Positions 26,749 through 60,290 of a stretch of 64,000 nucleotides of DNA are shown in pieces. The stretch lies in contig NC_057751.1 in NCBI RefSeq assembly GCF_004010195.1, positions 2,685,984-2,749,983 of the forward strand, read 5' to 3'. The notes beneath the pieces are model-generated. The model saw only the letters and a program-made list of their open reading frames with translations. It searched no databases and was not told the DNA's origin. Made by a program: the position numbers and the translations under genes. Origin of the DNA: Chiloscyllium plagiosum (lineage: Eukaryota). Each line of letters begins with the position of its first letter. Position 1 is the first letter of the stretch.

Positions 26749-27401
26749 AAAGTTTGTGAGAAGATTTGTAGCTCGGGTGCTCGTTGCTGTGGTTCTGTTC
26801 GCCGAGCTGGAAGTTTTTGTTGCAAATGTTTCGTCCCCTGTCTAGGTGACATCCTCAGTGCTTGGGAGCCTCCTGTGAAGCGCTTCTGTGGTGTTTCCTC
26901 CGGCATTTATAGTGGCCTGTCCTTGCCGCTTCCGGTTGTCAGTTTCAGCTGTCCGCTGTAGTGACTGCACAAAACACTATATAGGACAAACAGGAAGACA
27001 GCTAACGATCCGCATCCACGAACATCAACTAGCCACGAAACGACACGACCAGCTATCCCTAGTAGCCACACACGCAGATGACAAGCAACATGAATTTGAC
27101 TGGGACAACACTACCATTATAGGGCAAGCGAAACAAGAACAGCCAGGGAATTCCTAGAAGCTTGGCACTCATCCACAAACTCCATCAACAAACACATAGA
27201 CCTGGACCCAATATACCGGCCACTACAGCGGACAGCTGAAACTGACAACCGGAAGCAGCAGGGACAGGCCACTATAAATGCCGGAGGAAACACCATAGAA
27301 GCGCTTCACAGGAGGCTCCCAAGCACTGAGGATGTCACCTCAACAGGGGACGAAACGTTTGCAACAAAAACTTCCAGCTCGGCGAACAGAACCACAGCAG
27401 C
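26749..27401. mobile_element. Penelope-like element, family C: inverted pLTRs around a + strand GIY-YIG fragment, 13-bp TSD
   Basis: CSDCTKHYIGQTGRQLTIRIHEHQ. Inverted arms of about 180 bp. TSD ttccttcctgatc at 26736-26748 and 27402-27414. Confidence 0.93.
27323..27362 (+). ncRNA. Minimal type-I hammerhead ribozyme motif (family C pLTR)
   Basis: gca-CTGAGGA-t-GTCaCCT[caac]AGGgGAC-GAAA-cg-TT-tgc: stem I gca/tgc, stem II 6 bp with one mismatch, GUU triplet. Confidence 0.7.
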
Positions 27402-27628
27402 TTCCTTCCTGATCGTTATCGATGAAAATTTCTTGCATTGAAGCATTTGCTATTGGTTCTGGTTGAGCTATTTGCGCAAGTATTGTGATCGCGGCAGTTT
27501 TCTCAAAGAAGCAAAAGGAAAGCCACAAAGAATAGAATTCGTCCAGCAAAATGGATTGAAGTTTCCCACACAAACTTCAGTTTTTAAAAAGAGAAATGAA
27601 TCTGTGAGAAAAATATACTGCTGTTGAT

Positions 27629-28776
27629 TGTTATGACTCACTGGGGTAGTACACTTGAAATCAAGGCCTGCCATTCCCCAATTGGTCACAAATGTTAAAG
27701 ATTTTATTAAAGTGCACACTGTCCTCAGTCTGCCTGGTTGACAGCACAGACCAGGTTTCTGTACTTAACCAGAATTACTGTTCATTACAAATAAATTGAT
27801 TCTACCTACAGTAAAAAGCTATGAAACTGTTAACACATATCTTCACTGTTAAAACCCAAATCCCTTATCAGCCTCACCTTACACATACATACAAAGTCAG
27901 ACAGATAAAAATAAATAATGGAGGGAAAATAAACTAGGACAGATGTTCAATGGCCCTGGTCCACAGGGTTCACAAGCCTTTTGCTTGCCAAGACTTGCTA
28001 TTCTTCAATCTCTTTGCCCAGATACTTGTCACTTATTTGCAGGAGGCACAGAATGACTAGTTCACAAATTATAAAGCCCCTGACTTATTCACTAGATTAG
28101 GGAGGTCCAAAACTAAAGGGCATAGGTTTAAGGTGAGAGGGCAAAGATGTACAAGGGACCTAAGGGGCAACCTTTTCACGCAGAGGGTGATGTGTGTATG
28201 GAATGAGCTGCCAGAGGAAGTGGTGGAGGCTGGTACAATTGCAACATTTAAAAGGCATCTGGATGGGTATATGAATAGGAAGGGTTTGGAGGGATATGGG
28301 CCGGGTGCTGGCAAGTGGGACCAGATTTATTTCGGATATGTGGTCGGCAGAGACAAGTTGAACCAAAGGGTCTGTTTCCATGCTGTATAGCTCTGACTCT
28401 GTAAGAGACTGTTTCTATCTGCTCTGTTTCACTTCTTCAGAATAAGTTTCCCTTTCACCACCTGCATTGAACCATAGATTAATCTTTATGTTCTTATGCA
28501 GTTGCCCTGGTCTCAGATGGGAAATGTATTGGCTAATTTAAAAGTTGGAGCATTGGCTAACACAAGGCATAACTGAAAGCCAGGGTAGCAATGATATTCC
28601 AAGGCTTTCAGCCTTGTGGTTAAAACTGGCATTAGCAAAATATCATTCAATTAGCACTCCATTCTTCATGGCCAGCCAGCTGTTGTGCGATACACATTTA
28701 ACCAAATTTAATTTCACATCCAATGTGACTTTAACAGCAACATGCTGAACCTTGAACACACCAGGTTGTCATGAAA
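27629..28776. mobile_element. Possible old solo LTR interrupted by CR1
   Basis: Starts tgttatgac and ends gtcatgaaa (imperfect terminal inverted repeat); no TSD seen. Confidence 0.3.
28095..28400 (+). mobile_element. CR1 3' end
   Basis: Nearly identical to 275-580 (DLRGNLFTQRV..VWNELPEEVVEAG). Confidence 0.93.
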
Positions 28777-28964
28777 TATCTTTTTTTCTGACACTTCCGC
28801 AGGTGCCAATACTGACTCTCAGATGCTCGAGAAACAGATTTGTTCTCTGTGTCAGTGAGACACTTATACAGGATTTCACAATCTCATGTCTCGAATATCT
28901 CCTCAGTCAAATTCTCCAGTTCGCTCCTGACTAACCTCCTGTCAGCTGCCCCTCCTTGCTGGTA

Positions 28965-29360
28965 CTCATGCCTCTGAATCAGAAGACTCACTTCAAGGCT
29001 TGAGCACAAAAGGTAAAGATGGCACTTCAGGATAGGACTGAAGGAATTCTCTGTCACAGGTCATAGGTGCTGTACTTTGGTTGCAAATTTCAACCAGGTC
29101 CCAAGTGGGTGCAAAAAATCCCCAGTACAATTTTGGAGAAGGGCTAAAGAATTCTGTCCAGCATCTAAACCAAAATTTATCCATCAATGAACATCACAAA
29201 AATAAATTATCTGAGTCATACTGCTGTTTGAAGGAGTTTGCAGTGCAAATAGTAGCTGTGCATTCCTACAGTGATGACACATCAAAAAGTGCTTTTTTGT
29301 TGTAAAGCTCTGTGAGATATATAGTGGTTATGAAAAATGCTGCATTCATCTAAGTTTTTT
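28965..29360 (+). mobile_element. Degenerate Deu-domain SINE
   Basis: tactcatgcctctgaatcagaag head; aaatcccagtac...gaagggc...aaaatttatccatcaa...attatctg...tgtaaagc. Confidence 0.6.
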
Positions 29361-30249
29361 CACAATCTTTAAAATTTAGCACGTCTGAAACTCCGTCGCC
29401 CTTATTCTAACTCACACCAAATCCAATTCAGAGCTGTGCTTACAACCTTGACTCATGTGTGGCAAAAACCTTGTATTTAAAGTTTTCTTCTCCTGCTTCA
29501 CATCTCCTCATTTCCTTAACCTATCATAGTTTCTACCAGATCTTCAGGTAGAAACTTCGCAGGCACAAAATGACATGGGCACTGGGGAGAAAGTTGGGGA
29601 AAATCATGTGAGATTGGCAGCAAGGAGATTCCTGACATGGAAAGCAAGAATGCCCATTTTCCAACCAAGTGTTTAGTGACAAGTTGAGATTCTCACTCAT
29701 GAGTGGTGAGGCCTCTTAGCATGCTTTAACATCTTAATTATTACATCACCTTGCCTATTGGGATGCAATTTCCCATTCTCCCGACTACAAATAGATGGCA
29801 GCAGTTTCCAACTGGAAAATCAGAGCAGTAACATGGTGACTCCCAACTTGCCCATTGATCCTCTGCTGCTCAATCTTGGACACCTGGCACCAACATCTCA
29901 GAGTATGCAACCTGGGCAGGGACCTTTATGAGGTGTCAGTTCCCCTTTATCCAACATATCTGCGATTGAAAGGAATCACACAAGGTAGCTGCAGACTGTC
30001 AGCACTTGACTGAGTGCAAGGCTAAACGCGAAACTTGGCATTGGCACCAGTAATCCTGAGAAGTCTTGGCAGTGACCAGGATTTGTCCCTGTGAAAATAC
30101 GAGAAGCAGGGTAGGAGTGTGGTATATTGGGGATGAGGTGAGTTTGAAAAAATCATATGAGAAATCTGCAACATCACATGAAGAGAAATTCAGCATGGGA
30201 CTCAATACAATTAATACTTGGCTGATTTCTGGTAAAATTTAGCACTTTG

Positions 30250-32720: not shown

Positions 32721-32912
32721 CGTTTCAGGGAATCTGAATTTCTATAGCAACGTAAATGCCTTTTCATGTCTAAAGCTGTTGAAACTGATTGTGGAAGCTC
32801 CTGTGTTCTCTCCAGCACATGACTAACCAGAAATCTATCCCACTCTTAGTACTTGGCCTTGGCCTGTGTTCAAAGAATTTGCCAGATGATAGTTAACTTG
32901 CATGACAATCCT

Positions 32913-35119
32913 TTGAAGAGAAAGTGAGGACTGCAGATGCTGGAGATCAGAGTCTGGAGTGTGGTGCTGGAAAAGCACACCCGTTCAGATAGCATCCGAA
33001 CAGCAGGAAAATCAATGTTTCGAGCAAAAGCCTTTCATCAGGAATGAAGCGCGTGGGCTGTGTGGGAGTGGGGAGGGGGGGGCGGGTTGGGCTGCTGAGA
33101 GATAAGAGGGTGTTGGGGGAAGAAAACTGAGAATGTGATAGGTAGATGGAGGTGGGGGAGAAAATTATAGGTCAGAAAGGAGGGTGGAGCGGATAAATGG
33201 GAAAGGTGATGCATAGTTCATGAGGGCGGTGTCGACTTAGAGGCTTGGGCCTGGGATAATGTGGGGGAGGGGAAATTAGGAAAATGGTGAAATGCACATT
33301 TATCCCTTGTGGTTGCAGGGTCCCAAGGCGGAGTATGAGGCGTTCCTCCTTCAGGTGTCGGGTGGTAACAGTTTGGCGGTGAAGGAGGCCCAGGACCTGC
33401 ATGTCCTCGGCAGAGTGGGAGGGGGAGTTGAAGTGTTCAGCCTTGGGGCAGTGGGGTTGGTTGGTGCGGGTGTCACAGGGATGTTCGCTGAAATGATCCG
33501 CAAGTTGACGTCCTGTCTCCCCAATGTAGAGAAGACCACATTGAATACAACGGATGCAGTAGATGACATTGGTGGAGGTACAGGTAGAAATCTGTTGGAT
33601 GTGGAAGAATCCTTTGGGTCCTTGGACGGAGGTGATGGGGGAGTGTGGGCACAGATTTTGCACTTCCGGTGGTGGTAGGGGAAGACATCAGGAATGGGGT
33701 GTGAGCTGGTGGTGGCCATGGATCTGATAAAGGAGTCACGGAGGGAATGGACTCTCCGGAACGCTGATAGGGTGGGGAGGGAAATATGTCCCTTGTGAGG
33801 GGGTCTGTGGTGCAGTAAGTGGAGGAGATGCACTAGAGGGTACCGTCAACCACGTGGAAGGGGTAATTGCAATCTTTGAAGAAGGAGGCCATCTAGGATT
33901 TTCTAAGGTGGAATAGGTCATCCTGGGAACAGATGCAGCAGAGGCAAAGGAATTGGGAATAAGGGATGGCATTTCTACAGGAGGTAGGATGGGAGGAGGT
34001 GTAGTCTAGATAGCTGTGAGGGTTGGTGGGTTTGTAGTAGATGTCCGTGGTTAGTCGGTCACCTGAAGGAGAGATGGACAGGTCCAGGAAGGGGATGGAG
34101 GTGTCCAAGATGGTCCAGGTGAATTTGAGGTCAGGGTGAAAGGTGTTAATGAAGTTGATGAACTGTTCAACCTCCTCTTGGGAGCACAAGGTAGCACCGA
34201 TACAGTCATCGATGTAGCAGAGGAAAAAGTGGGAAGGTGCTGGCGTGACCGCGGAAGATGGATTTTTCCAGGTACCCAACAAAGAGACAGGCATAGCTGG
34301 GGCCCATGCCAGTGCCCATGGCTACCCCTTTGGTCTGGAGAAAGTGGGACAATGGGAAAGAGAAGGTGTTAAGATTGAGGACCAGTTCAGCCAGGTGGAT
34401 GAGGATGTCGGTGGAAGGGGACTGGTTGGGGCGGTGTGAGAGGAAGATACAGAGGGCTTAGAGGTCTTTGTCGTGGTGGAAGGATGTGTACAGGGACTGG
34501 ATATCCATGGTGAAGATGAGGCTTTGGGGGCCGGGCAAACAAAAGTCTTGGAGGAGGTGAAGGACATGGGTGGTGTCCCGAACGTAGTTGGGGAGTTCCT
34601 GGACTAAGGGGGACAAGACGGTGTCAAGCTATGTGGAGATGAGTTCAAAGAGACACGAGCAGGCTAAGGCAATGAGTTGACCGGAGAAGCCAAGTTTGTG
34701 AATCCTTGTTAGGAGGTAGAATTGGGCAGTGCGGGGTTCACGGACAATGAGGTTGGAAGCTGTGGATGGGAGATCCCCTGAGGTGATGAGGTTATGGATG
34801 GTCTGGGAGATGATAGTTGGTGATGGGAGGTGAGATCATAGCCGAGGAGGCAGGAGGAGGAGCTGTCTGCGAGTTGGCGCCTGGCTTCAACAGTGTAGAG
34901 GTCAGTGCGCCAATCGACCATTGTGCCCCTCCTCCCCCCTCCTCGTCTGAAGGTATGATGGTGAGGTTGGGGTTGGAGTGGAGGGAGTGGAGGACTGCAA
35001 GTTGCAAGAGTGGGAGGTTGGATAGTTACTGATTAAGGGCTTATGCCCAAAATGTTAATTTCCTGCTCCTCGGATGCTGCCTGACCTGCTGTGCTTTTCC
35101 AGCACTACATTTTCAACTC
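32913..35119 (-). mobile_element. 5'-truncated Penelope-like retroelement (family A): RT + GIY-YIG, 3' pLTR, inverted pLTR at the 5' end, 10-bp TSD
   Basis: RT motifs CYIDDCIG, LKFTW, PFLDL, YYKPT; GIY-YIG NVIYCIRC..C.LLYIGETGR. pLTRs at 32917-33045 (-) and 35030-35122 (+). TSD tgacaatcct at 32903-32912 and 35120-35129. Frameshifted. Confidence 0.95.
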
Positions 35120-36396
35120 TGACAATCCTGTTAACACACCTACTTTGGTCATTAAGTGCTGGAGTGTGACTCCAACTCAGAACTTCTGGCGTTGAGGGAG
35201 GATTGCTACTCTCTGTGCAACAAGATCTTCAAATTATGAAGAGTGGACATGTTTTAATAACATTGCTGAAAGAAATAAGGGAGAATAGAATTTCATTTTA
35301 TGAAGAGGCATAGAATGGCTTCCATTAAATAGTGGTGAAAGAACAGTCCGGGATAACTCTTAGACGGGAGAGTGAAACCTCAGGAACTTTCCCATTCCCA
35401 GGCACCATTGCTGATCTGCTACTTTCTCACCTGATCCCCATATTCCTTGATATCCTGGGAGATCAATGCAGATTTCAGTCTTGAATAAAGTCAACAACCA
35501 ATAGTTCACAACTGTCTTGTGTAGAGAATAAATATTTGTAAAATCAGACAGAAGGAAATAGATAATATGCAGACTCAGCAGATATTGTTTTCAGCAAGTT
35601 GTCACAGGCTCGATGGGTTATATTGCTGTCTCCTGCTCTTTAAGCTGATTCTAATTGCTCCTGTTCATGTTGGTGCAGTTCCATTTCATTAGGTTTGGCA
35701 ATCATAATTTAACATTTGAACTTTTTAATGTGTTAATTAATGCCCAATGCTATTTGATTAGGTGAGGATCTGATGCACAATACAAGCTAACTGATATTGT
35801 TGTTCACTCAACCTGAAGCCAGATGGTAAAATAGGAAACAAGTATTCAATCTAAGTTCACAATTTTCTTTTGGAAAATGCAGCATTATGTGAAGTCGGTC
35901 TCAACAGTTTTTCCTCATGTCTTCAATTAATGCCCTTCAGCTGTCCTTAACTTTGATAAAGTAACTCATGTAACATCGACAGTTGTTACCATAGGAGGAA
36001 CTAAGAGTTCTCGTTATTCTAAGCCAGTTAAGCACAAACCCAGGGTGTGACCATACAAAGTCACTTCAAACATACACATGCATTTTTGAAATGAGGGCTA
36101 CAGTGGCCAACGTGGTGTCCTGTGAATGAAGTGTCAATTTATTTTTACCCACTCACTTGCTTTATGTGATCATGTGCTCTGAAGGACCTGTGCATATTTT
36201 ATTATTGCATTTAAAGGGCAATATAAATGCAGGTGGGCTGCTGTTGGACAGAGGACACATAAGCAACTTGGTCATAATACTTTTGTCAGTGTAAAGTCCA
36301 TTTCAGGGTGAGTGCTCTTTCTCTCACTGTCAGTTTCGTACATTCACCAATTGACCATTAAATTTTGAAATCAGCAGGGAGAGGACTTGATTAAGT

Positions 36397-36600
36397 CATG
36401 ATTTGGAGATGTCGGTGTTGGACTGGGGTGTACAAAGTTAAAAATCACACAACACCAGGTTATAGTCCAACAGGTTTAATTGGAAGCACTAGCTTTCGGA
36501 GTGCTGCTCCCTCATCAGGTGAAGGAGCGACACTCCGAAAGCTAGTGTGCTTCCAATTAAACCTGTTGGACTATAACCTGGTGTTGTATGATTTTTAACT
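36397..36600. mobile_element. Palindromic pLTR-only Penelope derivative (family B), 10-bp TSD
   Basis: Inverted arms aagttaaaaatcacacaacaccaggttatagtccaacagg... / ...cctgttggactataacctggtgttgtatgatttttaact. TSD ttgattaagt at 36387-36396 and 36601-36610. Confidence 0.9.
36487..36521 (-). ncRNA. Minimal hammerhead motif (family B pLTR)
   Basis: Minus strand: cac-CTGATGA-g-GGAG[cagca]CTCC-GAAA-gc-TA-gtg. Confidence 0.65.
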
Positions 36601-39600
36601 TTGATTAAGTTAAGTTGATGGCATTGTAAATTGTGAGAGCGAAGCTGAAATAATTTATGAGTTGCTTCCACAAGGGAAAGATTGAATGTCTGGCTTGGAC
36701 TTGTCAGATAAGAGTTTTGCATCATAGTTTTAAAGTTATTTTTGAGTGGAGATGAAAGCCAAAATATTAAAGGATGCAAACACAAAGGGCAGTTTACAGT
36801 TGTTACAATTGTTTGTAGTTCAAACATATGATGTGTTTTTTTGGATGTATGTTACAAATGACATGAGATTGATTTACTAACTTACAGAAATATAAACAGG
36901 TTGCATTTCTGTATTTCATTGTAATTTAACTTGAAAAATTCTCAAGGCCTTTCTCAGGAGAGTTTATCAAAGACCCTTGACCCACCGAGGAGATATTTTG
37001 AGACATGACAAAATGTATGGTCAAAGAAATGAGTTCCCTGTCTTAAAGGAGGAGAAAGAGAAAAGGAAGTGTGGAACAGGAATGTCAGATCTATGTGCTC
37101 AAGCAGCCTGTTACATGACCACCAATGATGGAGTGATTCTAATCAGGGATGATCAAAAGGCCAGAATTACAGATGGTAGAACAAGTGTTGAGTGTTTGCC
37201 CGAGCTCATTGACTGTCACATCCAAGAAGCAGGAAAGATCTGCACCTTAATTGAATGGCGGAGTGGACTCGATGGGCCGAATGGCCTTACTTCCACTCCT
37301 ATGTCTTATGGTCTTATGGTCTTATGGTCTTAAGTCTTCACCATCAATCCTGTCTATCCCTCGAAGTATTTGGAAAATTTAATGAGATCACTTTTCATTC
37401 TTCACAATTTTGGAGAACAAAGGCCCAGTTTTGCCCAGTTTCTCATCAAAGGATAGTCTTGCCATCCAAGGAAAGAGTTTTAGCTCAAAATGGGTGCCAT
37501 TTAAAAAGAAAAATTAAGTTAAGTTTTAAACGTTCATTGAGGTAGAACTGACCATTTTGTCGTCAGTGCAGGAAGGTGATCCTTGTATTATTGTTATAAT
37601 TGTCATATAATCCCATCAAAAATCTAGACTTATCCAACACTTTACACATTGACTTTAGGCTTGTCCAAATGCTTCAAATCCAATAAAGTATGATCATAGA
37701 TGTAGCCACTGTTATATTGAAAGAAATGTGACAGGCAATTTAACACAGCAGTTTTCCAAATTTACCGATGATATGACACCAATATAAACTGTTAATTGTG
37801 ATGTTAGTTGAGGGAAAAATATTGATTCTGATATTATTGGAAATTAATGAATGTCGACACATACACAAATGGAGCAGACATCTTTTGCACAGCAAGGTGC
37901 CATGAAATGAATGAATGGCTAATCACAGTGAATCAGCTACATGAGTGATCTCAATCAGACAAGTTGAGTTGGAAGGGTCAGAGAAATGTGCAATGAAATT
38001 CATTTCATTTCTAAGATTGGACAATTTACAATCCCTCACCTCCCGTTGCCTTCATTGGATGAATAACCAGCTGGTCATCCATTGGCGCCTCTTTGGTTAG
38101 TACTCTTGAAGGAGTTTTTGTGTGCCGGAATGTTTCTCAGTGTGAGACGCTTCTGCAGCATCATTAGACTCACTTTCTCCCACTCTAAGTGTTCAATTTA
38201 AAGAGGAGTTCACATTAGGAGGTAGTTAATTGAATTTGAACGGCAAGGTGCCAGGAGGTACAAATTTCTCAATGAGTTCCACATTTGCACAAAGCTATGT
38301 TTAACTGTACAGCCTGCTAATAATATCAGGATACAAGAGTTCTGGGAGAAGGTGCCCTGAGCCACTCTGTACAATGCCTTGATTATTGCTTTGTGTTTTT
38401 TTATCATCTCAGAATGGAGCTTGAATAATGCAGCAATCTGGTTTGAACACAGAATATATCAGTGTTGTGTCTGAAGTGCTGAGTTGGGGCATCACAGCTA
38501 CAACTGAAGGAAACTAAATCAAAGTGACTGAATAAATGCAATCTCTGTTAGAATTGGGGAGATACAGGACAACATTCTTTTTGTGGACTGTCGAGTTAAA
38601 CATAAATGATATGAGCTGCCAGGCAAAACGTGTACTTAACGAGTGCTTCAACTTCAATAAATCGCCCAAAATGCTCACAGAAACCCAATAAAACAAGATT
38701 TCACACTGAGTCCCAAAAGGTCAAGGATAGATGTTCAAAATTTTGATCAAAAAGATGGGGCAAGTTGAAGGATGAGAGGGAGGAAGAGGTTTGTTAAGAT
38801 CCGAAGCAGCCATCTTGTCACATATAAAGCCTGGAAACCATTTTGAATCTCATATTAGTGCCTGCTTGCTCAGCTTGTACATTCCCAGCGTCAGTGATGT
38901 GGTTGACCTTGCAGCTGTCCTGATACCTGATAGTGAACTCTTTCCCAGCATGGGAATGCTTTTCTTTTACAAGAATCTCTTGTATTCTCATACTTGCTTA
39001 TCAGCTCCAAACCAACACTATCCAGACAATACTCATTATCCTACAATTAACAATTTGCTAATTGTTAAATCATTGTCACCTATATAATCACACAACTCTC
39101 TGTATCTCATAGGAGTGACTTGTGACCATTTGGTCAACTTGTCTCTCCTCTTGAGCTCACCAATAAACAGTCAATAACTCAAGGTTGTGCGGCATGATTT
39201 ATTGTTCCTCTAAATTGGACTGCTACAAGTGAATCACTCACTGCATAATGTATCCACTCCCAACATTTAAGGATGGAATTGGGAGTGATTCCTCATTATT
39301 AAATATATCCAATCTGTGTCAGTGACCTCATTGACTGCTGTGGTTCATCTCCTGACTGAAGAGTCCAAAGCAGGATCAACGCTGATGTTTTTGTTGTTCA
39401 GGCTAATGTCTGCATCCATGCCATCTTTGGCCTTCCTCTGTGGACATACATCTTGCGCATTTGTCAGTCATTAGACAGTCATCGAAACACACTGAACCAA
39501 ATTTTAGAGCTCACCTCCACTTCAGCCAAACAGCTACAGTTCTTTCCCTTGTATTGATGTACTCACCACCTTGGTCATGTTTGACCCGAGATAGTTCCTC

Positions 39601-39721
39601 AGCAAAAATCTATTTGAGAATTCTGAAGTCATCCATACAGGAGATGCAACCTGCCCATCTATTTGGACTTTTCTGCAGAGTAGTCTCCAAGCTGTTGAGA
39701 GCAGTACAATGGAGGACCTTG

Positions 39722-40331
39722 TTTAAAATCACATGACGCCAGGCTATAGTCCAACAGGTTTACAGACACTCATAACCCCCCACCCCAACACCCCATACAC
39801 CCACACCCACATGCACACACACATATAAATTTGCGGTGTGAATTTGTACTTGCAGAATTACATTTTACTTTGCTCAAAAACTGCATGAATCCATGTAAGA
39901 TTCTGTAAATCTGTTTTTTAGATTAGAATCAGTCTGACCATTGTGGCACAGACACAACCTCACATGGAGCTAACACCTTCAATACATTATCTGGGCTGAC
40001 GTGATACCAATTGTTAAAGTACACTTGAGAATGTAACTTTTAAAAAAAAGCTTGTGATTTACATATAAAAGAACTGAAACCAACACGATCATTCTAAAAG
40101 ATGAGAGACTTAACAAACAAGCCAGGTTTTTTTCAATATATAATTTCAGTTACATCATACTGTAAACTTTTGCTATAAATTCTGTGTGTTATGATCTTAT
40201 TCTCCACAACCACCTGATGAAGGAGCAGGCTCCGAAAGCGAGTGCTTCCAATTAAATCTGTTGGACTATAACCTGGTGTTGTGTGATTTTTAACTTTGTA
40301 CACCCCAGTCCAACACCCGTGTCTCCAAATC
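39722..40331 (+). mobile_element. Penelope family B 3' region with pLTR and a short inverted pLTR at the left end
   Basis: 39722-39761 is the inverted arm. 40211-40331 reads cacctgatgaaggagcaggctccgaaag...ccagtccaacacc...tctccaaatc. Confidence 0.8.
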
Positions 40332-40645
40332 CTGATTTTGTGTGATTTTGTCAACCATTGAATTCTCATGATGGGTCTTGTGCTTTTCGTGGAAGCTTTA
40401 ATGTGGCACCAAGAGCAGGCTGAGCAATTTGTATCACTGAGAAAGGTGGTCAAGACCATGCTCTGGTCAAGTTTGACTCTAATTTTCAGCGTAGTGCCAC
40501 TCTGCATCCACACATGATTCAAGGGAGAAATTGCTTTCTGAATATATACACTGATAGCTTCATCGGTAGTTACTTTCTGAAAAGGCATATCACCAAAGGA
40601 TGAGAACAATTTCACAACCTTGTAATCAGAGTCATCAACAATTGT

Positions 40646-41147
40646 ATAAAACAAAGAATTGCAGATGCTGCAGATGTGAAATAAGAACAGGAATTGCTGG
40701 CAAAACTCGGCAGGTCTGGCAGCATCTGTGAGGAGAAATTGTAGAATCCAGACAGTTCAACCTATTGAGTCTGCAGCAACACTCCAAAAACCATTCCACC
40801 AGCCCTCACCCCAATTCCCATAACCGTGCATTAATGATGGCTAATTCACCTGGATACTGTGGGCAATTTAGCATGACCACCTAACCTGCACACCGTTGGC
40901 CTGTGGGAGGAAACTGCAGCTTCTGGCAGAAACAGGAAGAATGCAAGCTCCATATAGGCGGTCAACCGTGGGTGGAATTTAGCCCAGATCCCTGACACTC
41001 TGAGGCAACACTGCTAATCACTGAGCTACCATGCTGCCTTTCAGAGCGGTTCTGATGACGGGTCACTGGGCTGAAAACATGACTCTGCTTTCTTCCCGCA
41101 GAAAATGCCAGTCATGCTAGGTTTCACCAGCAATTTCTGATTTTGTT
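40646..41147. mobile_element. Family D inverted pLTR pair with an HE1 SINE (40742-41038, -) nested between the arms
   Basis: Arms 40650-40740 (-) and 41045-41147 (+). Flanking tcatcaaca at 40632-40640 and 41148-41156. Confidence 0.75.
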
Positions 41148-42993
41148 TCATCAACAGCTATGCCTGGTGTTTATTCATGTGTGGCTTGGTGCAGGCTATA
41201 ACATTGCCCTAGTTATGGAAACACTGATTTGGATAGCACTGTCTTCAGCAACATGGAGAAATTGCCTGCCAGTCTAGATTTCTTTCTTGTGTTGGGCAGC
41301 TAGCACACAATTACCTGCATACAAATATACTCAGTCTGAACAGGTTGAAGACCTTTCATTGAACAGAACCTAACGTTATTGCTGACAAGAATATCTCTGG
41401 TATCTTCTGTCAGCATTCAATTGAAAATATTGAAGAGTCCAGGAGCTACAATGCACCCTTGTGATCTGGTGAATGACAACGCATTGGACATCTCACAATA
41501 AGCACAACCATCTCTAACCATGTCATTTGTACTGGAAACGTGGTTTTGACAGACCTGTTAGAATATTCTAGCTTGGACAGCAATGGCCATAGACCATGTT
41601 GACTTACATTGTTTAAATCCTATGCAGGGTCTACGAACAGCATACGTAGATTCATTGGGAGAGGAAGGGATAGATCTTAGGGCTGAGTTATTTGCAGGTT
41701 TGGCCATCACCGGTGGAACGGTCAACATCAGGGACATTCAGGAGGCTAGGATTGGAACAACATCAATATTTTGGAGGGCTGTAGTGGCAGAGGCAGTGAT
41801 GGAGGGTAAAGGCTGTGGAGAGATTTTCAAGTCAAAGAATTTACTGTCATACTGCAGTTGCAGTGTTTGTAATATTGGTATGCAAAATGGTTTGTATCTT
41901 AAGGAGACTGGTTCGGGCTTTTTAAATATCAGTCATGAGTATCTCCAGCAGGACTGTGTGGGAGACAGCAATGATTGCAAACAAGAGAGAATGATCTCAC
42001 AGTGAGATCTGTGTGTTAGTTACAAGATGAGACAACTTTGAACTTATTAGTCCAGAATGTGTTCCAACATGGGTGGATAAATAGCTGCAAAATCTAATTA
42101 AATATCTGAACAAAAGAGTAATTCTTTTCTCAAAAGAGTATTTAAGCAACTTTGTAATAACATGCTGTGGATAACATTGAATATTATTTTTTAATATGTT
42201 TGAATATTGCTGTTCAAAATGTTTCAACTCAAATCTTAATAACAACACACTACACAACCAGCAAGAGCAGACAGATGATTCGTAATTATCTATTTACACT
42301 TTGCTCAATGAAACACAACAAAAACAGCTTCATGTACAGTTGGTTTTGAGGAAGGGGGTCTTAGGTTTTGGACAATAGTTCATTGTCCATCCCTAAAGAC
42401 CCTTGGGAAAGAAAAACAGAAAGTGCTGAAGAAGCTCAGCAGATCTCAGCATCTGTGAAGAGAGAAAAAGAGTTGTTGCTTCAAATGATTCTTCTTTCAA
42501 AGCCATGTTCTGAGTAGATACATAATGTTAAACCAGTTTCTCTCTCAACAGTTCCCATCCTGCTTTAGTGCACAATTTGGATCTGAACAGTTGTTCATTT
42601 TGATTTTACAAAAGGATGTGGAAAGCAGCACAACTCAAATTAGAAATGAACACTATTTCTTTTTGTCTGTTAGACAGTCATCCCATCCCAGATATCCTGA
42701 TGGATAATTAAGAAGACAGGCAATGAAGGCATCAGGTTAATTATTCTCACTGCTTTCAGTCATCAAATGGTACCAAACTATTGATCCATCTTCATACCTG
42801 TACTACTTAATTCTGCACTTCTGTCATTCAAGCAACAGCTTGGCAGCAGCCTTCAGCATAGGACCGAGTCACAATTTAATCTTGTCTCTATAGATTCACA
42901 GACTTCATTGATTTAACCTTGCTAATTTTGTTGGGAGTCTGGAGTACACATTTATTCATTGCTCTGTCGGGAGAAACAAGCACTCTAGAAAGT

Positions 42994-43033
42994 GAGTTCT
43001 GAGGAAGGATCACTGAACTTGAAATGTTAACTC
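42994..43033 (+). ncRNA. Minimal hammerhead motif (family D pLTR; element about 42993-43098), partly decayed
   Basis: gagtt-CTGAGGA-a-ggatcactgaactt-GAAA-tg-TT-aactc with a perfect 5-bp stem I. Flanks cactctagaaag/cactctgtaaag suggest a diverged TSD. Confidence 0.55.
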
Positions 43034-43139
43034 TGCTTTCTCTCCATACATGCTGCTAGACTTGCTGAGCTTCTCCAGCAATTTCTGTTTTCGTTTCACT
43101 CTGTAAAGCTACAGCCTTGCCTGAAACTTGCTAACTTAC

Positions 43140-44439: not shown

Positions 44440-44460
44440 CTGCACTGTCCTCACCATGTG
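44070..44460 (-). mobile_element. CR1 3' end (44070-44320) fused to a CT-microsatellite segment, inserted in an L2 fragment
   Basis: Young CR1 tail tcatagagtcatagagatgtacagc. The host L2 reads through (cagcagctgagctgag|caggggtgaag). Confidence 0.8.
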
Positions 44461-46332: not shown

Positions 46333-47680
46333 TCATAGAGTCATAGTGATGGACAGCACAGAAACAAACCCTTTGGTCCAACTCATCCACGTCGACCAGA
46401 TATCCCAAACTAATCCAATCCTATTTGCCAGCAGTTGGCCCATACCCTTCTAAGCTCTTCCGATTCATTTACCCATCCAGATGACTTTTAAATGTTAAAT
46501 GTACCAGCCTCCACCATTTCCTCTGGCATCTCATTCCATACATGCACCACCCTCTGCGCGAAAAAGTTACCCCTTACGTCCCTTTTAAATCTTTCCCCTC
46601 TCACCCTAAATCTGTGCCCTCTACTTCTGGACTTCCCCCAGCCCAGGGAAAAAAACCTTGCCCGTTTACCCTATTCATGCCCATTCTTATTTTATAAACC
46701 TGTACAAGGTCACCCCTCAGGGAAAACAGCCCCAGCCTATTCAGCCTCTCCCTATAGCTCAAATCCTCCAACCCTGGCAACATCCTTGTAAATCTTTTCT
46801 GAACCCTTTCAAGTTTCACAACATCTTTCTGATAGGAAGGAGACCAGAATTGCACACAGTATTTTAAGAGTAGCCAAACCATTGTCATGTACAGCTGCAA
46901 CATGACCTCCCAACTCCTATACTCAATGTTCTGTCCAATAAAGGAAAGCATACTAAACGTCTTCTTCACTATCCACTCTACCTGCAACTCCACTTTCAAG
47001 GAACTATGAACCTGTACTCCAAGGTCTCTTTGACACGCCCCAGGACCTTACCATTAAGTGTATAAGTCCTGCACTGATTTGCCTTTCCAAAATGCAGCAC
47101 CTCACTTGAATCTAAATTAAACTCCATCTGCTACTCCTCAGCCCATTGGCCCATCTGATCAAGATCCCCGTTGTACCCTGAGGTAGTCTTCCTCGCTGCC
47201 CACTAGACATCCAATTTTGGTGTCATCCGCAAACTTACTGACTGTACTTCCTATGGTCACATCCAAATCATTTGTATAAATGACAAAAAAGCAGTGGATC
47301 CAGCACTGGTCACTGTGGCACACCCCTGATCACAGGCCTGCAGTCTGAAAAGCATCACCACACTCGGTCTTCTACTACCAAGCCAATTTTGTACCTAATT
47401 GACAAGCTCTCCCTGAATTCCATGTGATCTAACTTCAATAATTAGTCTCCCATGTGGAACCTTGTCTAAAGTCCATGTAGACAACATCTATCTACCATTC
47501 TGCCCTCATCAGTCTTTTTGGTTGCTTCTTCAAAAAAAACTTCATCAAATTTGTGAACCACAATTTTTCTACGCACAAAGCCATGATTACTATCCTTTAT
47601 CAGTGTACATGCCTCTCCAAATGTATGTAAGTCCTATGTTTCAGAATCCCTTCCAACAATTTATCCACTATTAATGTTCG
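46333..47680 (-). mobile_element. 5'-truncated CR1 LINE (RT)
   Basis: ORF 46601-46999 has CR1 motifs; similar to 13768-15000. Confidence 0.94.
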
Positions 47681-50029: not shown

Positions 50030-50335
50030 TGATCACCTGCAGAGACTTATTTTTCAGCCTGCTGACACTCCGCTCACACCATTCGTATGATGGTTTGATG
50101 TCTCTGCTGTTAAATTCTGTGTCTGTTGTCTTCACTTCACCTGATGAAAGAGCAATGCTCTGAAAGGTTGTGATTTCACATAAACCTAGTTAAAAATCAC
50201 ACAGCACCAGGTCATAGCCCAACAAGTTTAATTGAAAGCATGAGCTGTTCCTTCATTAGGTGCTTACCGGCATCTCCAAATCATCACATATATACCTGCT
50301 GGACTATAATTCGGTGTCATGTGACTTCTGACTCA
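50030..50335. mobile_element. Family B-like pLTR with a second family B piece inserted into it
   Basis: cacctgatgaaagagcaatgctctgaaag...cacataaaccta | inverted arm + terminus | cacatatatacctgctggactataa. Confidence 0.65.
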
Positions 50336-54503: not shown

Positions 54504-56010
54504 TGTTATGAAGTTGAACGTGTGTACTGACCCTTGAAGAGAGAGAGAGAATGCTGTTCTGAACTGAGAGCTTGCAAGTATCTGTGTATATGACGAGATG
54601 GCAGTCCCAGAGTATCCTGAAAAATTGAAAATATGTAACATTTGGTTGTAAAATGGATACCTAAGTTTTGATTGCTGTTTTGGCACCAATTCAAATTTAA
54701 CCAATCAGTTTAAATTTGGTCGGCACAACATTGTGGGCTGAAGGGCCTGTTCTGTGCTGTACTGTTCTATGTTCTAAAATTATGCTCCAGGATACTAAAT
54801 CCCAATCGAGTTTGAATTTAATGTTTTACCAACATTGAACCAACGAGATGATCTGCTGTTAGGGGTATAAAAATGCAGACGTTTCGAAAATTGGTCACAG
54901 AGAAATTGCCATAGAGAGAAACTCCCAGAGAGCTAATTGCCCATCCAACATTTTGCTCTCAAAGAAATTAGAATCATAGAATCCCTACAGTGAGGAAGCA
55001 AGCCATTTGTCCCAACATGTCCACATTAACCATCCAAAGAGTAACCCACACAGACCCATTCCCTATTGCTTTACATTTCCCGTGACTAATGCACCAAACT
55101 TCATATCCCTGAATGCTGAGGGCGGCTCAGTGGTTAGCACTGCAGCCTCACAGCACCTGGGTCCCAGGTTCAACCCCAGTCTTGGGTGACTGTCTGTGTA
55201 GAGTTTGCACCTTCTCCCCGTGTCTGTGCAGGTTTGCTCCGGTTTCCTCCCACAGTCCAAAGATGTGCAGGTCAGGGTGAATTGGCCACGCTAAATTGCC
55301 TGTAGTGTTAGGTGCAATAGTCAGAGGGAAATGGGTCTGGATGTGTTACTCTTCGGAGGGTAGGTGTGGACCAGTTGGGCCGAAGGGCCTGTTTCCATGC
55401 TGTCTGGAATCTAATCTAATCTAAATTCGCTTGGCCAATTCACCTAACCTGCACAGCTTTGGATTGTGGGAGGAAACCGGAGCAAACCTGCACAGACACG
55501 GGGAGAAGGTGCAAACTCTACACAGACAGTCACCCAAGGCTGGAATCAAACCCAGGTCTCTGGCACTACGAGGCAGTAGTGCTAGCCACTGAGCCAAGTT
55601 AGAAAACCTTCACCGTCCATGGTACCTTTTCATGTGAAACACACTCACAGTAAAAAGAAAGAAGACGACCCAGGGAGATCCGTAGCTGGAAGAGTGAAGA
55701 CATAGAAGAAGACAGAGACTATGTGCTTTTGAAATTAAGTTGATGTAATTTTAAGAAGTGTTGAATTGGAACAGCATATTGTTACAGAGTTGGAGGCAGA
55801 TAGTAAGCAGTGAAGAGAAAGGGAGGCTTAGAGTTGTGAATAATTTTTCTTTAGTGATTGCTTTTAGAATCAAAAAATAAATTGATGTTGTTTTCTTTAA
55901 ATGCTGGAATTTGGGAGTTCTGTCACTCATATGTTAACAGATTATGAGACGAGGCAAGCTTTTCTAGGTGTTTGGTTTAATTAACAGAAGGGTTCACCTC
56001 AGTGTCAACA
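54504..56010 (+). mobile_element. Solo LTR with nested CR1 tail (about 54715-54776) and nested HE1 SINEs
   Basis: TGTTATGA...TGTCAACA termini, TATA-like ggggtataaaa near 54862, aataaa near 55876. No clear TSD. Confidence 0.6.
54970..55597. mobile_element. HE1 SINE (+, 55121-55423) nested in the opposite orientation inside an HE1 SINE (-)
   Basis: The host's tail lies at 54970-55120 and its head at 55424-55597. Confidence 0.9.
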
Positions 56011-56256
56011 CTAATAATCCTTAATGCTCTCTGCACTGCCTACTCATTCTGTCAGGAGACCTCCCCACCTGCACTAACAGTAGTAACTGGGCCACCCACT
56101 TTCAGCTCCCATAATACCTGCCTCTCTTTCTCATTTATGAGGTAAGCAGATCCCAACAGTGCAAAAATCATCAAGATGGGTGGTCGGCTTTCCCATATTC
56201 GATTCGTCAAACCTTATGTGGAGAGTATCTGATTGATTGATGACTGTTTCACAAGC

Positions 56257-56490
56257 TGAAAATGTGTTGCTGGAAAAGCGCAGCAGGTCAGGCAGCATCC
56301 AGGGAACAGGAGAATCGACGTTTCGGGCATAAGCCCTTCTTCAGGAAACGGGAAGCCCTTCTTCAGGAATCCTTATGCCCGAAACGTCGATTCTCCTGTT
56401 CCCTGGATGCTGCCTGACCTGCTGCGCTTTTCCAGCAACACATTTTCAGCTCTGATCTCCAGAATCTGCAGACCTCACTTTCTCCTCAAA
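56257..56490. mobile_element. Young palindromic pLTR-only Penelope derivative (family A), 15-bp TSD
   Basis: Perfect 80-bp inverted arms at 56254-56333 and 56372-56451. TSD gactgtttcacaagc at 56242-56256 and 56491-56505. Confidence 0.93.
56311..56347 (-). ncRNA. Minimal hammerhead motif (family A pLTR)
   Basis: Minus strand: ttc-CTGAAGA-a-GGGC[ttat]GCCC-GAAA-cg-TC-gatt, with a GUC triplet and a weak stem I. Confidence 0.6.
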
Positions 56491-57292
56491 GACTGTTTCA
56501 CAAGCCCCAGACCAGGTATCAGAGACTGACCTTGGCTCACTGTGCAGGGACCCTTAAGGGGTGACTGTCCTGGTTAACTGAGGCCTGCTGACAACTGAGA
56601 CAGGTTTCTTGCCTTTGTGTCTGTACTAAGTGAAGTAGCGAGAGAGAAGTAATATGAGCCTGGTATCACTGGCTGAGGGAATCAAAGCCGCCAAAGGCAA
56701 GGCAAAGGGTTACTAAATGAAGATAAAAAAAAGATGTGGAGAGGCTTTGGGAGGGAATTTAGGCAGATGAAGCCTAGGCAACCAAGAGATGGGAGTGTGG
56801 AATTTGAAAACAAACACATCAACCGTGATGTTTTTGGATGGTGGGACAGGCTTAAAGGGCTGAATGGCCTATTTCTACTCCTAATTTCTTTACTGAGAGC
56901 AATCGCAGAGCAAAGTAAGTGTCATCTCATTTGAAGTATGATTCATGGATTCATAGAAGAAAGACTGACTAGGGAAATTGTGCAAGGCACAAAGTTATGG
57001 AAAAGGAGCTGGGTAAGAAAGGGTGGCGAATCAAGGCTCAATGAATTGAACATCGGGTGGCAAATTAGCAGACCAGACCCCCAGGGCCAATTGGCCAAGC
57101 TCTACTTCTCCATTCCAACATCACTGTATCGTGACGGAGAAAAAAAGGATTGGGTGTTCTCAGTTCAGTCTGAGGAACCTAGAGAGGGGGTTGAAATTAC
57201 TATTCAGTTCCCATGCCATTTAACATACACAGGTAGCTAGGGGAGAAGGTTGGTGTAGGGCAGTAACTTCATTGTGCTGATTCTTGACAGAT

Positions 57293-57645: not shown

Positions 57646-59194
57646 CTTAAGACAGTAGTGTCTCTGAAAGATGCTGCAGCAATTTCCAAAGAATACAAAA
57701 GAACAGAGGCTAGATTCCCAATTACTTCACAATGGGTTTGATATGAAATTTCCAACAAATAATAGAACTGGAACAACACAAACAGACTTGAACCTCATGA
57801 CTCAGCTTGATTAGAGGTCTAGAGTGGCAACAGGAGTGAATATCTGAAGGGTTTGATTGTGTTGCAGAGAACAGTGAAGAAGAGCTTTTTGCATGAACAA
57901 CACATATCAAAAGAAACCTTTGCTTTCGCGCAGACTCCTGCAGTGCAGTGTGAAGGAAATGGAAATTTCAAACTTTGGAATTCTTTTAAATGTAGTGACC
58001 CACATAGGGGAGTTTGAGAAGAAAAATGACATGTTGCGTTTGCACTTAATACACTGCAGTACCCACTCAATTCTCAAAATCTCTCTGTTCCCATTAATAT
58101 TTATTATAATGCTCGTACAACAACTTGCATTCATGTAGCCTTGAACGCAGTAAATCCTTTGAAGAAACCTAAATGAGAGGAATGTTATCTATCAAAACTT
58201 GGAATTGAGCCACAGAAGAAATATTAGGACAAGTGGCCAATGGCAAAGTGGAAAACAATGTTAGTTCTTCTAGAAGAGGAGAAAGATTCCTCGAGGTTTA
58301 AGGAATGATTTGGAAATGTTCATCCTCACCCGAGTTAATGATGATATGCTGCAAACAGCGAGTCCACTGCCCAGACTGTGATCTCCCATTTCGTTCAAAG
58401 CATATTGGACCGGCCTCTTCTGACACCTGACTTGTCTAAGTCCAAGTCAGAACTGAATGTTGCCTTCACACAGAGCCAGAGTCAGAGGCATTGTGGACAG
58501 TGAGGGGGCCAGTTCAATGAGTAGCCTGAACAGGGATTGTGGATTCTGCCAAAGGTTAGTTGCAGGCTAAATGTCATTGTGTTACACAGGTAGAATGTGT
58601 AGACATTAAGCTGACAATTGCACACAGAGTTCAGTGAATCTTAACCATTAGTTATGAGGCAAATTTCAGTGTTCTCTATTTTTTTCCTAAATAACATGAC
58701 AATTTTGGTGAGTTTCATTAGTGGTGGAAGAAAAGTTCCTCTACATCCTGGTTTCCACCCCAGCAAATCCTCCTCACCTTCAGGCTTTCTGTGAATCATT
58801 GTCCCATGCTTAATATTCCCCCACCTTTCACATGAAAAATTTCCCAGTTTGGGTTTCTCCTCTTCCCTTCTCTCCATATCCAACCCTCTCTTTCTCTCGT
58901 CCTCTCTGGACCCCTCCTGGGTTTTGAAACTTCTCACATAGCAGTTGAAGTTGAGAACTTGCAAACAGATGCTTGACTTCAAAGGGCTTGACCTGGCAGT
59001 AACATTCACGGACATAAATAGTGAAGTTCCAGGAGTACATTCAACTGCATTTAGAAATATAAATATTAGGATCCATTTCACCAGTTCAGTTGTTCTCACA
59101 TCAAATATGTAATTCTAATAACTGATGTAGGCTCACTGCACTTAATTGGTTATGCCGAGGTATAAACTCAGAGCAAAATAAACAACGCATGAAG

Positions 59195-59500
59195 TAAGGT
59201 GGTTCACTGCAGCCTCACAGTGCCAGGGACCTGGGTTTCATTCCCACCTCGGGTGACTGTCTGTGTGGAGTTTGCATGTTCTCCCCAAGTCTGCATGGGT
59301 TTCCTCCGGATGCTCCACTTTCCTTGCACAATCCAAATGTGAATTGGCCATGCTAAAATTGCACATAGTGTTAGGTGCATTAGTCAGGGGTAAATATACC
59401 GTAGGGGCGTGGGTCTGGGTCGGTTACTCTTCGGCGGGTCGGTGTGGACTTGTTGGGCTGAAGGGCCTGTTTCCATACTGTAGATAATCTAATCTAATCA
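59195..59500 (+). mobile_element. HE1-like SINE
   Basis: cactgcagcctcacagtgccagggacc...ggcctgtttccatactgtagataatctaatctaatc. Confidence 0.9.
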
Positions 59501-59529
59501 AACCTAGTGGGAAAATAAGTATTAGAGCA

Positions 59530-59935
59530 GATATCTTATATTTTGATTTATTGTCACGTGTACCTCAGTACAGTGAAAAGCTTTGTTTGCAAGAAATATA
59601 GGCAGATCATAGCAAATAAAGACATACAGTTAATAGGGTGCTCAGACAGAGTGAGGCATACAGGTTACACTGCACAGGACATATACAAAGTCAGATCAAC
59701 ATCAGTAAGATCAACATTATTTGAAATTGGAGAGTCTAATAACAGAAGGGAAGAAAGAGTTCTTGTAGTTGCTGGTGCATGTATTCAAGCTTCTGTATTT
59801 TCTGCCTAACAGAAGAGGCTGTGGGAGAGCGTTATTGGGGTGGGAAAGATCTTTGATGATGTTGAGACCCTTTCCGTCGCAGCAAAAAGTGTAAATGGAG
59901 ACTATAGATGGAAGGTTGGTTTCTGTGCTGGTCTG
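59530..59935 (-). mobile_element. Rex1/Babar LINE 3' end
   Basis: IIKDLSHPNNAL.QPL..GRKYRSL.T.T...KNSFFPSVIRL.N is the typical Rex1 C-terminus. Confidence 0.8.
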
Positions 59936-59944
59936 GGTTCCCCT

Positions 59945-60290
59945 GTCCTTACCCCTATCCCACACGTCAGGCCTTGTTGTCTCATTGTCTGTTATTATAC
60001 ACAACCCATTGTTAGTGTGTAACAGTACCCACCAATAGCTATTCACCCTCCTAGAATAATTGTTATCCACTCCTTTGCCTATCCAACTGCTCTCCTCTCT
60101 CTTGGGGCTCTATCCCCACCTATTGTTACTCAGTATCCCCTACACCCCCACCCAATGCTCTGCATGAAAACCAACATTTTCCTCACCACTGTCATTTTTG
60201 AGGACGGGTCACTCGAAACGTTAACTTTAATTTCTCTCCACAGATAATACCTAACCTGCGGAGCTTTTCCAGCAATTTCTGTTTTTTTTA
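59945..60290 (+). mobile_element. Penelope family D 3' region with pLTR
   Basis: Ends ttgaggacgggtcactcgaaacgttaact...tttccagcaatttctgttttt. Confidence 0.7.

What the first reader, a model, noticed from the sequence alone, without database searches (positions are those of the whole stretch)
26749..60290. Four unrelated pLTR families share one minimal hammerhead-ribozyme architecture
Seen in sequence: families A (56311-56347, -), B (36487-36521, -; 40211-40243, +), C (27323-27362, +) and D (42994-43033, +; about 41050; about 60200) differ in primary sequence. All read stemI-CUGANGA-N-stemII-GAAA-xy-UH-stemI'. Stem II sequences differ but still pair (GGGC/GCCC, GGAGC/GCUCC, GUCaCCU/AGGgGAC), and stem I pairs in B, C and D (cac/gug, gca/ugc, gaguu/aacuc). 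Stem III is reduced to a self-complementary tetramer (ACGU or AGCU) in the least decayed copies, and every family has one extra nucleotide after CUGANGA. Established: Penelope-like elements carry minimal hammerheads in their pLTRs, proposed to cleave as dimers. Inference: this genome carries many dispersed ribozyme cassettes, and the least decayed may still cleave host transcripts.
Basis: partly seen in the sequence, partly recalled or inferred. Interest (0 to 1): 0.7.

Follow-up and report, generated by a model that had tools for sequence, protein, structure and literature searches.

The report
Penelope hammerheads at likely transcript start
These are the known miniature hammerhead ribozyme motifs of Penelope-type jumping genes, present here in roughly 280,000 intact-looking copies; most short copies begin just before the motif rather than at its predicted cut site, so they are likely dead copies of the uncut start of the element's RNA rather than cutters of host RNA.

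Summary
The motifs are real (94 hits in 1.2 Mb sampled, about 280,000 genome-wide; none in shuffles) and each family lies behind a Penelope-like GIY-YIG endonuclease. The architecture, extra nucleotide and palindrome included, is published (PMC4209133). A and D are sister families, not unrelated (E 2e-12); the cited D copies and B 40211 are decayed. Stems covary between sister families. Beyond the finding: in A, B and D the 5' ends of short copies pile up at the ribozyme's front edge (61 of 96 A copies), about 30 nt behind a TATA-like motif, and rarely at the cut site (3,477 versus 108 copies). They are likely cDNAs of the uncut RNA start. Family B also has a poly(A) site 27-30 nt behind the cut site, used in RNA reads that run through the ribozyme. 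Host-RNA cleavage is unsupported. Earlier AI notes of this scan reached the same start-site reading on other DNA; none found mentioned the poly(A) site.

The parts
56311..56347 (-). Family A (Neptune-type) minimal hammerhead, intact core, GUC triplet, 2-pair stem I; the copy begins 31 nt before the predicted cut site
56254..56491 (.). Head-to-head inverted pair of two family A stubs; the + arm carries the tail; predicted to fold as one long hairpin
32911..35122 (-). Older family A element: RT fragments (33893-34321), GIY-YIG endonuclease (33172-33687), pLTR with decayed hammerhead (core at 33041), inverted stub at 35026-35122
36487..36521 (-). Family B (Neptune-type) minimal hammerhead, intact core, CUA triplet, AGCU palindrome; one arm of an inverted pair at 36393-36603
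40211..40244 (+). Family B hammerhead in a long copy; U16.1 is lost, so the core is broken
40174..40180 (+). TATAAAT box of the family B pLTR, 32 nt before the A at 40206 where the farthest-reaching short B copies begin (predicted transcription start)
40251..40271 (+). Family B poly(A) signal (ATTAAA here, AATAAA in other copies) and the site where RNA reads of the family carry A-tails (40268-40271), followed by a GU-rich stretch
27323..27362 (+). Family C (Poseidon-type) minimal hammerhead, intact core, GUU triplet; A9, the extra U and G10.1 spell AUG
26822..26861 (-).
26749..27399 (.). Family C insertion: inverted arms (97% alike) around a GIY-YIG endonuclease fragment (26942-27236, +); the - arm carries the tail
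42994..43098 (+). Family D stub (older sister of A); decayed hammerhead at 42994-43033; begins 34 nt before the predicted cut site
41047..41150 (+). Family D stub, decayed hammerhead
60190..60289 (+). Family D copy with native upstream sequence, hammerhead broken (C3 lost, deletion in stem II)
50138..50172 (+).

Best explanation
The motifs are minimal hammerhead sequences in the pseudo-LTRs of three lineages of Penelope-like retroelements, and most short copies of families A, B and D begin a few bases before the motif, which likely marks the start of the element's RNA, so the scattered cassettes are likely dead cDNA stubs of uncut RNA rather than ribozymes that act on host transcripts. Steps: (shown) each family follows a PLE endonuclease; copies end at two 3' sites 35-40 nt apart; 5' ends pile up 29-40 nt before the predicted cut site; a TATA or TATA-like motif lies 29-32 nt upstream of the pile-up. 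(Inferred) the pLTR is a Pol II promoter that starts the RNA at the ribozyme's first helix; the element's RT primes inside the RNA 50-100 nt behind the cut site, as shown for the anole Poseidon element, and runs off the 5' end, leaving 90-135 bp stubs, often joined head to head. (Inferred) the ribozyme serves the element: it lies between the cap and the ORF, so a protein-assisted cut would remove the cap and leader and likely shut off translation; most RNAs that were copied had not been cut. In family B the same pLTR carries a poly(A) signal behind the ribozyme that is used in RNA (shown), so it likely works like the promoter-R part of an LTR.
For: 5' ends per nt, window plus 120 ten-kb stretches: A, 61 of 96 copies that reach -29 end in -40..-29 (0.053 per nt) against 4 of 35 in -60..-41 and 7 of 152 in -4..+4 (about 0.005); B, 17 of 41 against 1 of 51; D, 17 of 21 against 5 of 45. 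Non-inverted A copies alone: 28 of 61. Young A picked by a downstream-only pattern: 16 of 20. Genome-wide in young A: 16,417 junctions in -34..-21 against 1,253 in -5..+8; 3,477 starts at -32, 108 at the cut site, 47 at +1. In RNA run X19 the largest upstream loose-end group on an A copy (96 reads) falls on the -32 base. Five A subfamilies each have both long and short copies. Spacing: motif at -58..-64 in 12 of 13 long A copies, -65..-69 in 11 of 13 B, -63/-64 in 2 of 2 D. The -32/-34 base is the A of TCATTC (A) and TCAGTT (D), Inr-like (motif recalled). Two 3' termini in A, B, C. B ORF starts behind the tail in L261. A-tails at 40268 (335 reads) and 40271 (549 reads), depth running on through the cut site; ATTAAA or AATAAA in 124 of 141 B copies. 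PMC11167929: internal initiation, uncut RNA is the main substrate, cleavage needs the protein.
Against: No direct 5'-end data: and one search list no place where many molecules begin. Family C shows no pile-up (0 of 8, n = 9) although it has TATAAAT at -87. The A motif (TTTATCT) is not a standard TATA box. The peak is broad: by eye, -31 (22 of the first 100) exceeds -32 (11), and ends trail on to -17 (36 of 132). B's ends spread from -41 to -25 and many are inversion joints. D copies are old and alignments fade (14 of 59 ends in +5..+12). The cap-derived G is unsettled: G precedes the start in 63 of the first 100 rows, but 61 rows may owe their letters to the inverted partner, and among solo copies held it is 5 of 17. 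A small excess at the cut site (108 against 47) leaves room for some cut templates. No complete A, C or D element was recovered (assembly gaps). The poly(A) reads come from one sample, an unknown number of loci and copies mostly 85-95% like the reference; cut 3' pieces would be too short to be seen.
Confidence: 0.62

Rival explanations
1. The pile-up is a structural stop: RT stalls, or the cDNA folds back, at the hammerhead on a longer RNA, so the position reports the fold and not a transcription start.
For: Many ends are inversion joints with microhomology to stem sequences (65 of 163 A copies have an inverted partner; recurrent joints through the stem I letters). Ends trail through the 5' half of the ribozyme. 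Family C has a TATA box but no pile-up.
Against: A stall is expected at the side that RT meets first, the 3' side (general knowledge), where ends are rare (13 of 145 in -16..-5). The monomers fold weakly. C has the longest stem II and no stop. The pile-up keeps 29-32 nt from the upstream motif in three families, and in B its far edge lies 5 nt outside stem I.
Confidence: 0.18
2. One reading: the best-kept cassettes cleave the host transcripts that carry them, as dimers or with help from a protein, at a level that matters.
For: About 280,000 cassettes pass the descriptor, about 110,000 with palindrome and a 3-pair stem I (37 of 94). A and B sequences occur in cellular RNA. A, C and D share the ACGU palindrome and could pair across families. 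The anole ribozyme cleaves when the element protein is present. Starts at the cut site are about twice those at +1.
Against: 8 of 94 have a same-strand neighbour within 1 kb; 20 of 94 have a nearby antisense core; the window's pairs are buried in long hairpins. Published monomers showed no activity and dimers little. No begin or end pile-up at the cut site in X19, and polyadenylated B RNAs run through it. Variation inside families is mostly one-sided CpG decay.
Confidence: 0.1
3. The stubs are non-autonomous SINE-like elements that multiply from short master copies with an internal promoter, using the PLE protein in trans.
For: Stubs outnumber long copies (31 of 163 A copies reach beyond -60) and hold the region where RT primes. 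D. virilis Penelope has an internal promoter (PMC2377424); non-autonomous PLE derivatives are known.
Against: Short and long copies share the same diagnostic sequence in five A subfamilies, so the short form arose again in each. 5' ends are ragged and often inverted, and the conserved upstream motif is missing from stubs.
Confidence: 0.1

Closest known systems
Minimal hammerheads (min-HHR) in pLTRs of metazoan PLEs, Cervera and de la Pena 2014 (PMC4209133; parts 1-2 of 4 read: results, discussion, start of methods)
   Same: Type-I core without helix III, palindromic 15.2-16.2, one nucleotide between 9 and 10.1, G10.1-C11.1, several consensus families per genome, mostly single dispersed copies, pairs on opposite strands.
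   Different: About 280,000 here against about 4,000 (coelacanth) and 9,000 (Xenopus) there, with a different descriptor; stems are shorter (stem I 2-4 pairs, stem II 4-7). The parts read do not map 5' ends of copies or place a start site at the ribozyme.
PAc, Poseidon of Anolis carolinensis, Frangieh et al. 2024 (PMC11167929; parts 1-2 of 4 read; 3 supplementary files searched without a hit)
   Same: Two RT start sites giving the tail; ORF start inside the ribozyme at stem II (family C has AUG there); uncut RNA as the main template; no RNA ends at the cut site.
   Different: That work is biochemical and does not, in the parts read, describe stubs that begin at the ribozyme's front edge. A, B and D are Neptune-type, and B's ORF starts behind the tail.
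Insertion units of EN+ PLEs (Penelope/Poseidon, Neptune): pLTR, inverted 5'-truncated partner, 30-40 bp tail (Craig et al. 2021, PMC8557442, passages; Arkhipova et al. 2013, PMC3846280, passages)
   Same: All three features are seen; TATA and Inr-like motifs in a pLTR were noted in Adineta; the transcription start lies in the pLTR in Penelope and Chlamys.
   Different: There 5' truncation is described as variable; here it is concentrated about tenfold in 12 nt. A used poly(A) site just behind the ribozyme was not found in the passages or searches.
Non-LTR retrozymes of animals (bioRxiv 10.64898/2026.07.22.740005; part 1 of 5 and passages read)
   Same: Non-coding, PLE-derived, type-I hammerhead; reported in one chondrichthyan.
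   Different: Retrozymes are head-to-tail tandem units; these cassettes are mostly single or head-to-head.

Membership tests
PLE minimal hammerhead (min-HHR) | CUGANGA and GAAA boxes with NUH, type-I order | tested here: met
   Intact in 116 of 150 A, 51 of 80 B, 72 of 82 C, 25 of 42 D copies held (sets include search-selected loci)
PLE minimal hammerhead (min-HHR) | One unpaired nucleotide between 9 and 10.1; G10.1-C11.1 | tested here: met
   A in A, B, D; U in C; 94 hits with one extra nt against 1 with two
PLE minimal hammerhead (min-HHR) | Palindromic 15.2-16.2 in place of helix III | tested here: met
   CG in A and C, GC in B; 67 of 94 sampled hits, most others CpG-decayed; in D only 7 of 42 still read CGTT
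PLE minimal hammerhead (min-HHR) | Compensatory changes in stems I and II | tested here: met
   A/D/E: 5 of 9 pairs with two-sided changes, 92% paired; C/F: 2 of 10; 11 and 6 hand-picked related sequences, so the shuffle counts are not probabilities
PLE minimal hammerhead (min-HHR) | Self-cleavage as a dimer or with protein help | not testable with these tools
   Indirect only: no end pile-up; 108 against 47 genomic starts
EN+ Penelope-like element | [quoted passage not shown] | tested here: met
   A: RVT_1 E 5e-8 and GIY-YIG E 3e-4 (just under Pfam's cut-off) in L254; B: RVT_1 E 1e-7 in L261 with YIGET motif; C: GIY-YIG E 0.008, RT not recovered; D: RT and EN pieces by tblastn
EN+ Penelope-like element | pLTR, inverted 5'-truncated partner, optional 30-40 bp tail | tested here: met
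   direct pLTR-ORF-pLTR seen for B in L261
Neptune/Nematis clades (A, B, D) | CX2-5CxxC linker between RT and EN | tested here: met
   Present in A and B proteins; D assigned through homology with A; no RT tree was built, so Neptune against Nematis is not resolved
Penelope/Poseidon clade (C) | No zinc-finger linker; ORF start inside the ribozyme as in PAc | tested here: inconclusive
   No linker in the 94 aa held; AUG at A9-U-G10.1; no complete element
Non-LTR retrozyme | Head-to-tail tandem units each with a hammerhead | tested here: not met
   8 of 94 intact cassettes have a same-strand neighbour within 1 kb

The most novel reading that the evidence does not exclude
Neptune-type PLEs replicate with a retrovirus-like step. 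The pLTR acts as promoter plus R region: the RNA starts at the hammerhead and, in family B, is polyadenylated 27-30 nt behind the cut site of the 3' copy, upstream of both genomic 3' termini (about +50 and +90). RT must therefore prime near the 5' end, make a short strong-stop cDNA, and jump to the repeated ribozyme segment at the 3' end to copy the rest. The hundreds of thousands of stubs are failed jumps, and the ribozyme is the shared repeat and a protein-triggered decapping switch.
Probability: 0.3. Interest if true: 0.72.

Novelty: new member of a known kind. Interest (0 to 1): 0.4.

Why it matters
As reported, the finding repeats a 2014 result in one more genome. What may matter is the geometry. 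PMC8557442 calls the role of the hammerhead in endonuclease-bearing PLEs unclear, and PMC2377424 sees no obvious mechanism for regenerating the pLTR. If the RNA starts at the ribozyme, is copied uncut and (family B) ends just behind the 3' ribozyme, the idea that the ribozyme frees the element from a longer transcript does not fit these families, and a strong-stop-and-jump model becomes testable with one CAGE library and one RT assay. The copy number also makes this genome a good place to ask whether minimal hammerheads ever cut host RNA.

Tried and rejected
Rfam scan of the window to E 10: no hammerhead family. DNA search of G000 with family A: empty because common words are skipped; exact patterns worked. 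Pfam GIY-YIG search of G000: one weak hit. Search for complete elements: 20 long-frame loci were mostly assembly gaps or tandem artefacts; only B gave pLTR-ORF-pLTR. Sequencing runs: no RNA holder listed among indexed runs; run X20 laid no reads, so it is no test. The loose-end group at 40202 (406 reads) is a subfamily difference and was not used as start-site evidence. The G before AGTT in many D loci was set aside as query bias. Cap-derived G: inconclusive. Cut-site footprint: among 30 loci checked by script 3 start at the cut site, with 1-4 at each neighbouring position, 38 of the first 100 rows (by eye) look like joints to an inverted partner and 6 rows are one tandem array; treated as at most a minor class. 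Poly(A) hexamers behind A, C, D: absent (35 of 353, 5 of 87, 1 of 123 within 60 nt). Monomer folding gave no support. No covariance model was built: variation inside families is decay after insertion. Lunse et al. 2016 (PMC5785218) is not held; I saw only its citation and the summary in PMC6765202, and it may describe such families. Literature searches for start-site, poly(A), strong-stop or cap-G reports on PLEs found none, in a library that lacks most subscription journals; Repbase and Dfam could not be checked; bioRxiv supplements were closed.
Full report
Setting. The window lies in a 3.56-Gb assembly with many gaps. It looks like a shark's from its repeats; that is my recall and the wording of earlier AI notes, not a test. 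Positions below count from the predicted cut site (0 = first base after NUH).

Observation. All cited cores exist. A descriptor for the minimal hammerhead finds 5 cassettes in the window and 53 in 80 ten-kb stretches, against none in 10 and 3 Markov shuffles. Over 120 stretches (1.2 Mb, taken at round coordinates on the large contigs) it finds 94, which scales to about 280,000 (222,000-335,000); 37 of the 94 also have the palindrome and a 3-pair stem I. One exact 35-mer of family A occurs 29,004 times and a downstream 41-mer 57,181 times. Only three of the seven cited copies pass the descriptor; B 40214 and the three D copies are decayed. Rfam does not detect the motif and single copies fold no better than shuffles, as expected for ribozymes without helix III.

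What the families are. A, C and D lie at fixed distances behind PLE endonuclease sequence, B behind an RT-EN frame of 597 aa. A and B have the CX2-5CxxC linker that PMC8557442 gives for Neptune and Nematis; the 94 aa held of C lack it. A and D share pLTR sequence (33 nt, 94%, E 2e-12) and protein homology, so there are three lineages. Two more families turned up, E (sister of D) and F (sister of C). Inverted partners and two 3' termini 35-40 nt apart are seen in A, B and C. Between sister families stems change on both sides: 5 of 9 pairs in 11 A/D/E sequences and 2 of 10 in 6 C/F sequences (hand-picked and related). Inside families the changes are mostly one-sided CpG decay.

What is known. 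Cervera and de la Pena describe this motif in PLE pLTRs, with the nucleotide between 9 and 10.1, the palindrome, several families per genome, inactive monomers and weak dimers. The shared architecture is an inherited PLE trait.

Where copies begin. I collected copies by sequence downstream of the cut site only and mapped how far each matches a long copy. Kept were copies in the window and the 120 stretches with at least 45 bits, no gap at the junction and not at a stretch edge: 163 A, 66 D, 53 B, 9 C (one search found 425, 182, 161 and 99 in all loci held, search-selected ones included). In A, 61 of 96 copies that reach -29 end in -40..-29, about ten times the rate per base upstream (4 of 35 in -60..-41) or around the cut site (7 of 152). 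B gives 17 of 41 against 1 of 51, D 17 of 21 against 5 of 45, C none of 8. Genome-wide counts in young A agree: 16,417 junctions in -34..-21 against 1,253 in -5..+8 (different anchors, so a rough ratio), and 3,477 starts at -32 against 108 at 0 and 47 at +1 (filters pass about 0.42, 0.28 and 0.28). RNA reads of run X19 give an independent view: 1,190 of 12.96 million reads lie on an A copy, in both directions, and the largest upstream loose-end group (96 reads) is at -32. Long and short copies coexist in five A subfamilies.

Why a start site. The pile-up base is the A of TCATTC (A) or TCAGTT (D), the first base of stem I, and a conserved AT-rich motif lies 29-32 nt upstream in long copies of A, B and D while the sequence between varies. 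B's is a standard TATAAAT. In the anole Poseidon element RT starts inside the RNA at the two tail sites, uses uncut RNA, and the ribozyme cuts only with the protein present. Priming at those sites in the 5' copy and running off the RNA would give these stubs. Against this: C has a TATA box and no pile-up, A's motif is atypical, the peak is ragged (-31 above -32 by eye), the cap G is unsettled, and no direct 5'-end data exist.

Family B poly(A) site. On the copy at 40100-40340, 3,137 X19 reads were laid; 335 and 549 carry A-runs behind 40268 and 40271, where the element has no A-run, 12-15 nt behind an ATTAAA/AATAAA hexamer and before a GU-rich stretch. One or the other hexamer is present in 124 of 141 B copies. 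Depth runs on through the cut site (1,307, 1,206, 1,023 in successive bins), so uncut polyadenylated RNAs exist; the cut fraction cannot be seen, the reads come from one sample and from an unknown number of mostly diverged loci. The site (+27 to +30) lies upstream of both genomic 3' termini (about +50 and +90), so an RNA ending there cannot template them from its 3' end. In L261 the B ORF starts behind the tail, which puts the ribozyme in the 5' leader. A, C and D lack such a hexamer.

Host cleavage. Dimers need two same-strand motifs: 8 of 94 intact cassettes have one within 1 kb, 28 within the 10-kb stretch; 20 have an antisense copy of their core nearby, and the window's A and B pairs fold into hairpins of -174 to -177 and -131 to -139 kcal/mol. 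No begin or end pile-up is listed at the cut site in X19, but these libraries are a weak test. The twofold excess of genomic starts at the cut site is confounded by partner joints. I rate meaningful host cleavage at about 0.1.

Earlier notes. I had recorded the start-site reading before looking. Several unchecked notes of this scan report the same on other DNA, two in this genome; they are not independent support. Two gave leads that I tested: a large cut-site class (not seen here) and an extra G (inconclusive).

Verdict. The mapping of 5' ends and the used poly(A) site in B bear on how PLEs replicate and were not found in print in six searches. Interest 0.4.

Noticed in passing
window 56254-56451 and 36433-36603: Head-to-head PLE stubs form near-perfect 85-100 bp hairpins that score as miRNA-like in Rfam below threshold; with about 40% of A copies inverted, the genome holds very many potential dsRNA hairpins. 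X19 reads over an A copy show several A>G and T>C differences, which may be subfamily variation or editing.
   Followed up: partly
window 43029-43100; family D consensus: Behind the D ribozyme the sequence reads like a 3' splice site (pyrimidine run then CAG) directly before an ATG shared with family A; further CAG acceptors follow in A and D.
   Followed up: no
G000:C16:42817618-42817929: Six matches about 47 nt apart that each begin at family A's predicted cut site: a small tandem array.
   Followed up: no
listing, e.g. G000:C1:98823921-98823955: A recurrent joint (7 of the first 100 rows, by eye) in the A subfamily with a 4-pair stem I links a partner that starts at -32 to the cut-site side through the stem I letters; fold-back of the cDNA on stem I would give it without cleavage.
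   Followed up: partly
L133:1537-1578, L295; L179, L276, L290, L303: Two further hammerhead families in this genome, E (sister of D) and F (sister of C, 7-pair stem II).
   Followed up: partly
L251:4762-7740: A family A ORF interrupted by a long tandem array of a 70-nt unit that keeps frames open for over 800 codons; an expansion or an assembly artefact.
   Followed up: no
window 13850-14881, 46601-47047, 4063-4497; 7173-7346, 55423-55596: CR1-type LINE RT fragments (RVT_1 E 5e-13 for the first) and a dispersed SINE-like repeat family; names recalled.
   Followed up: no
window 39700-39840; L053: Family B's 3' UTR holds a long CA-rich microsatellite between the endonuclease and the pLTR.
   Followed up: no
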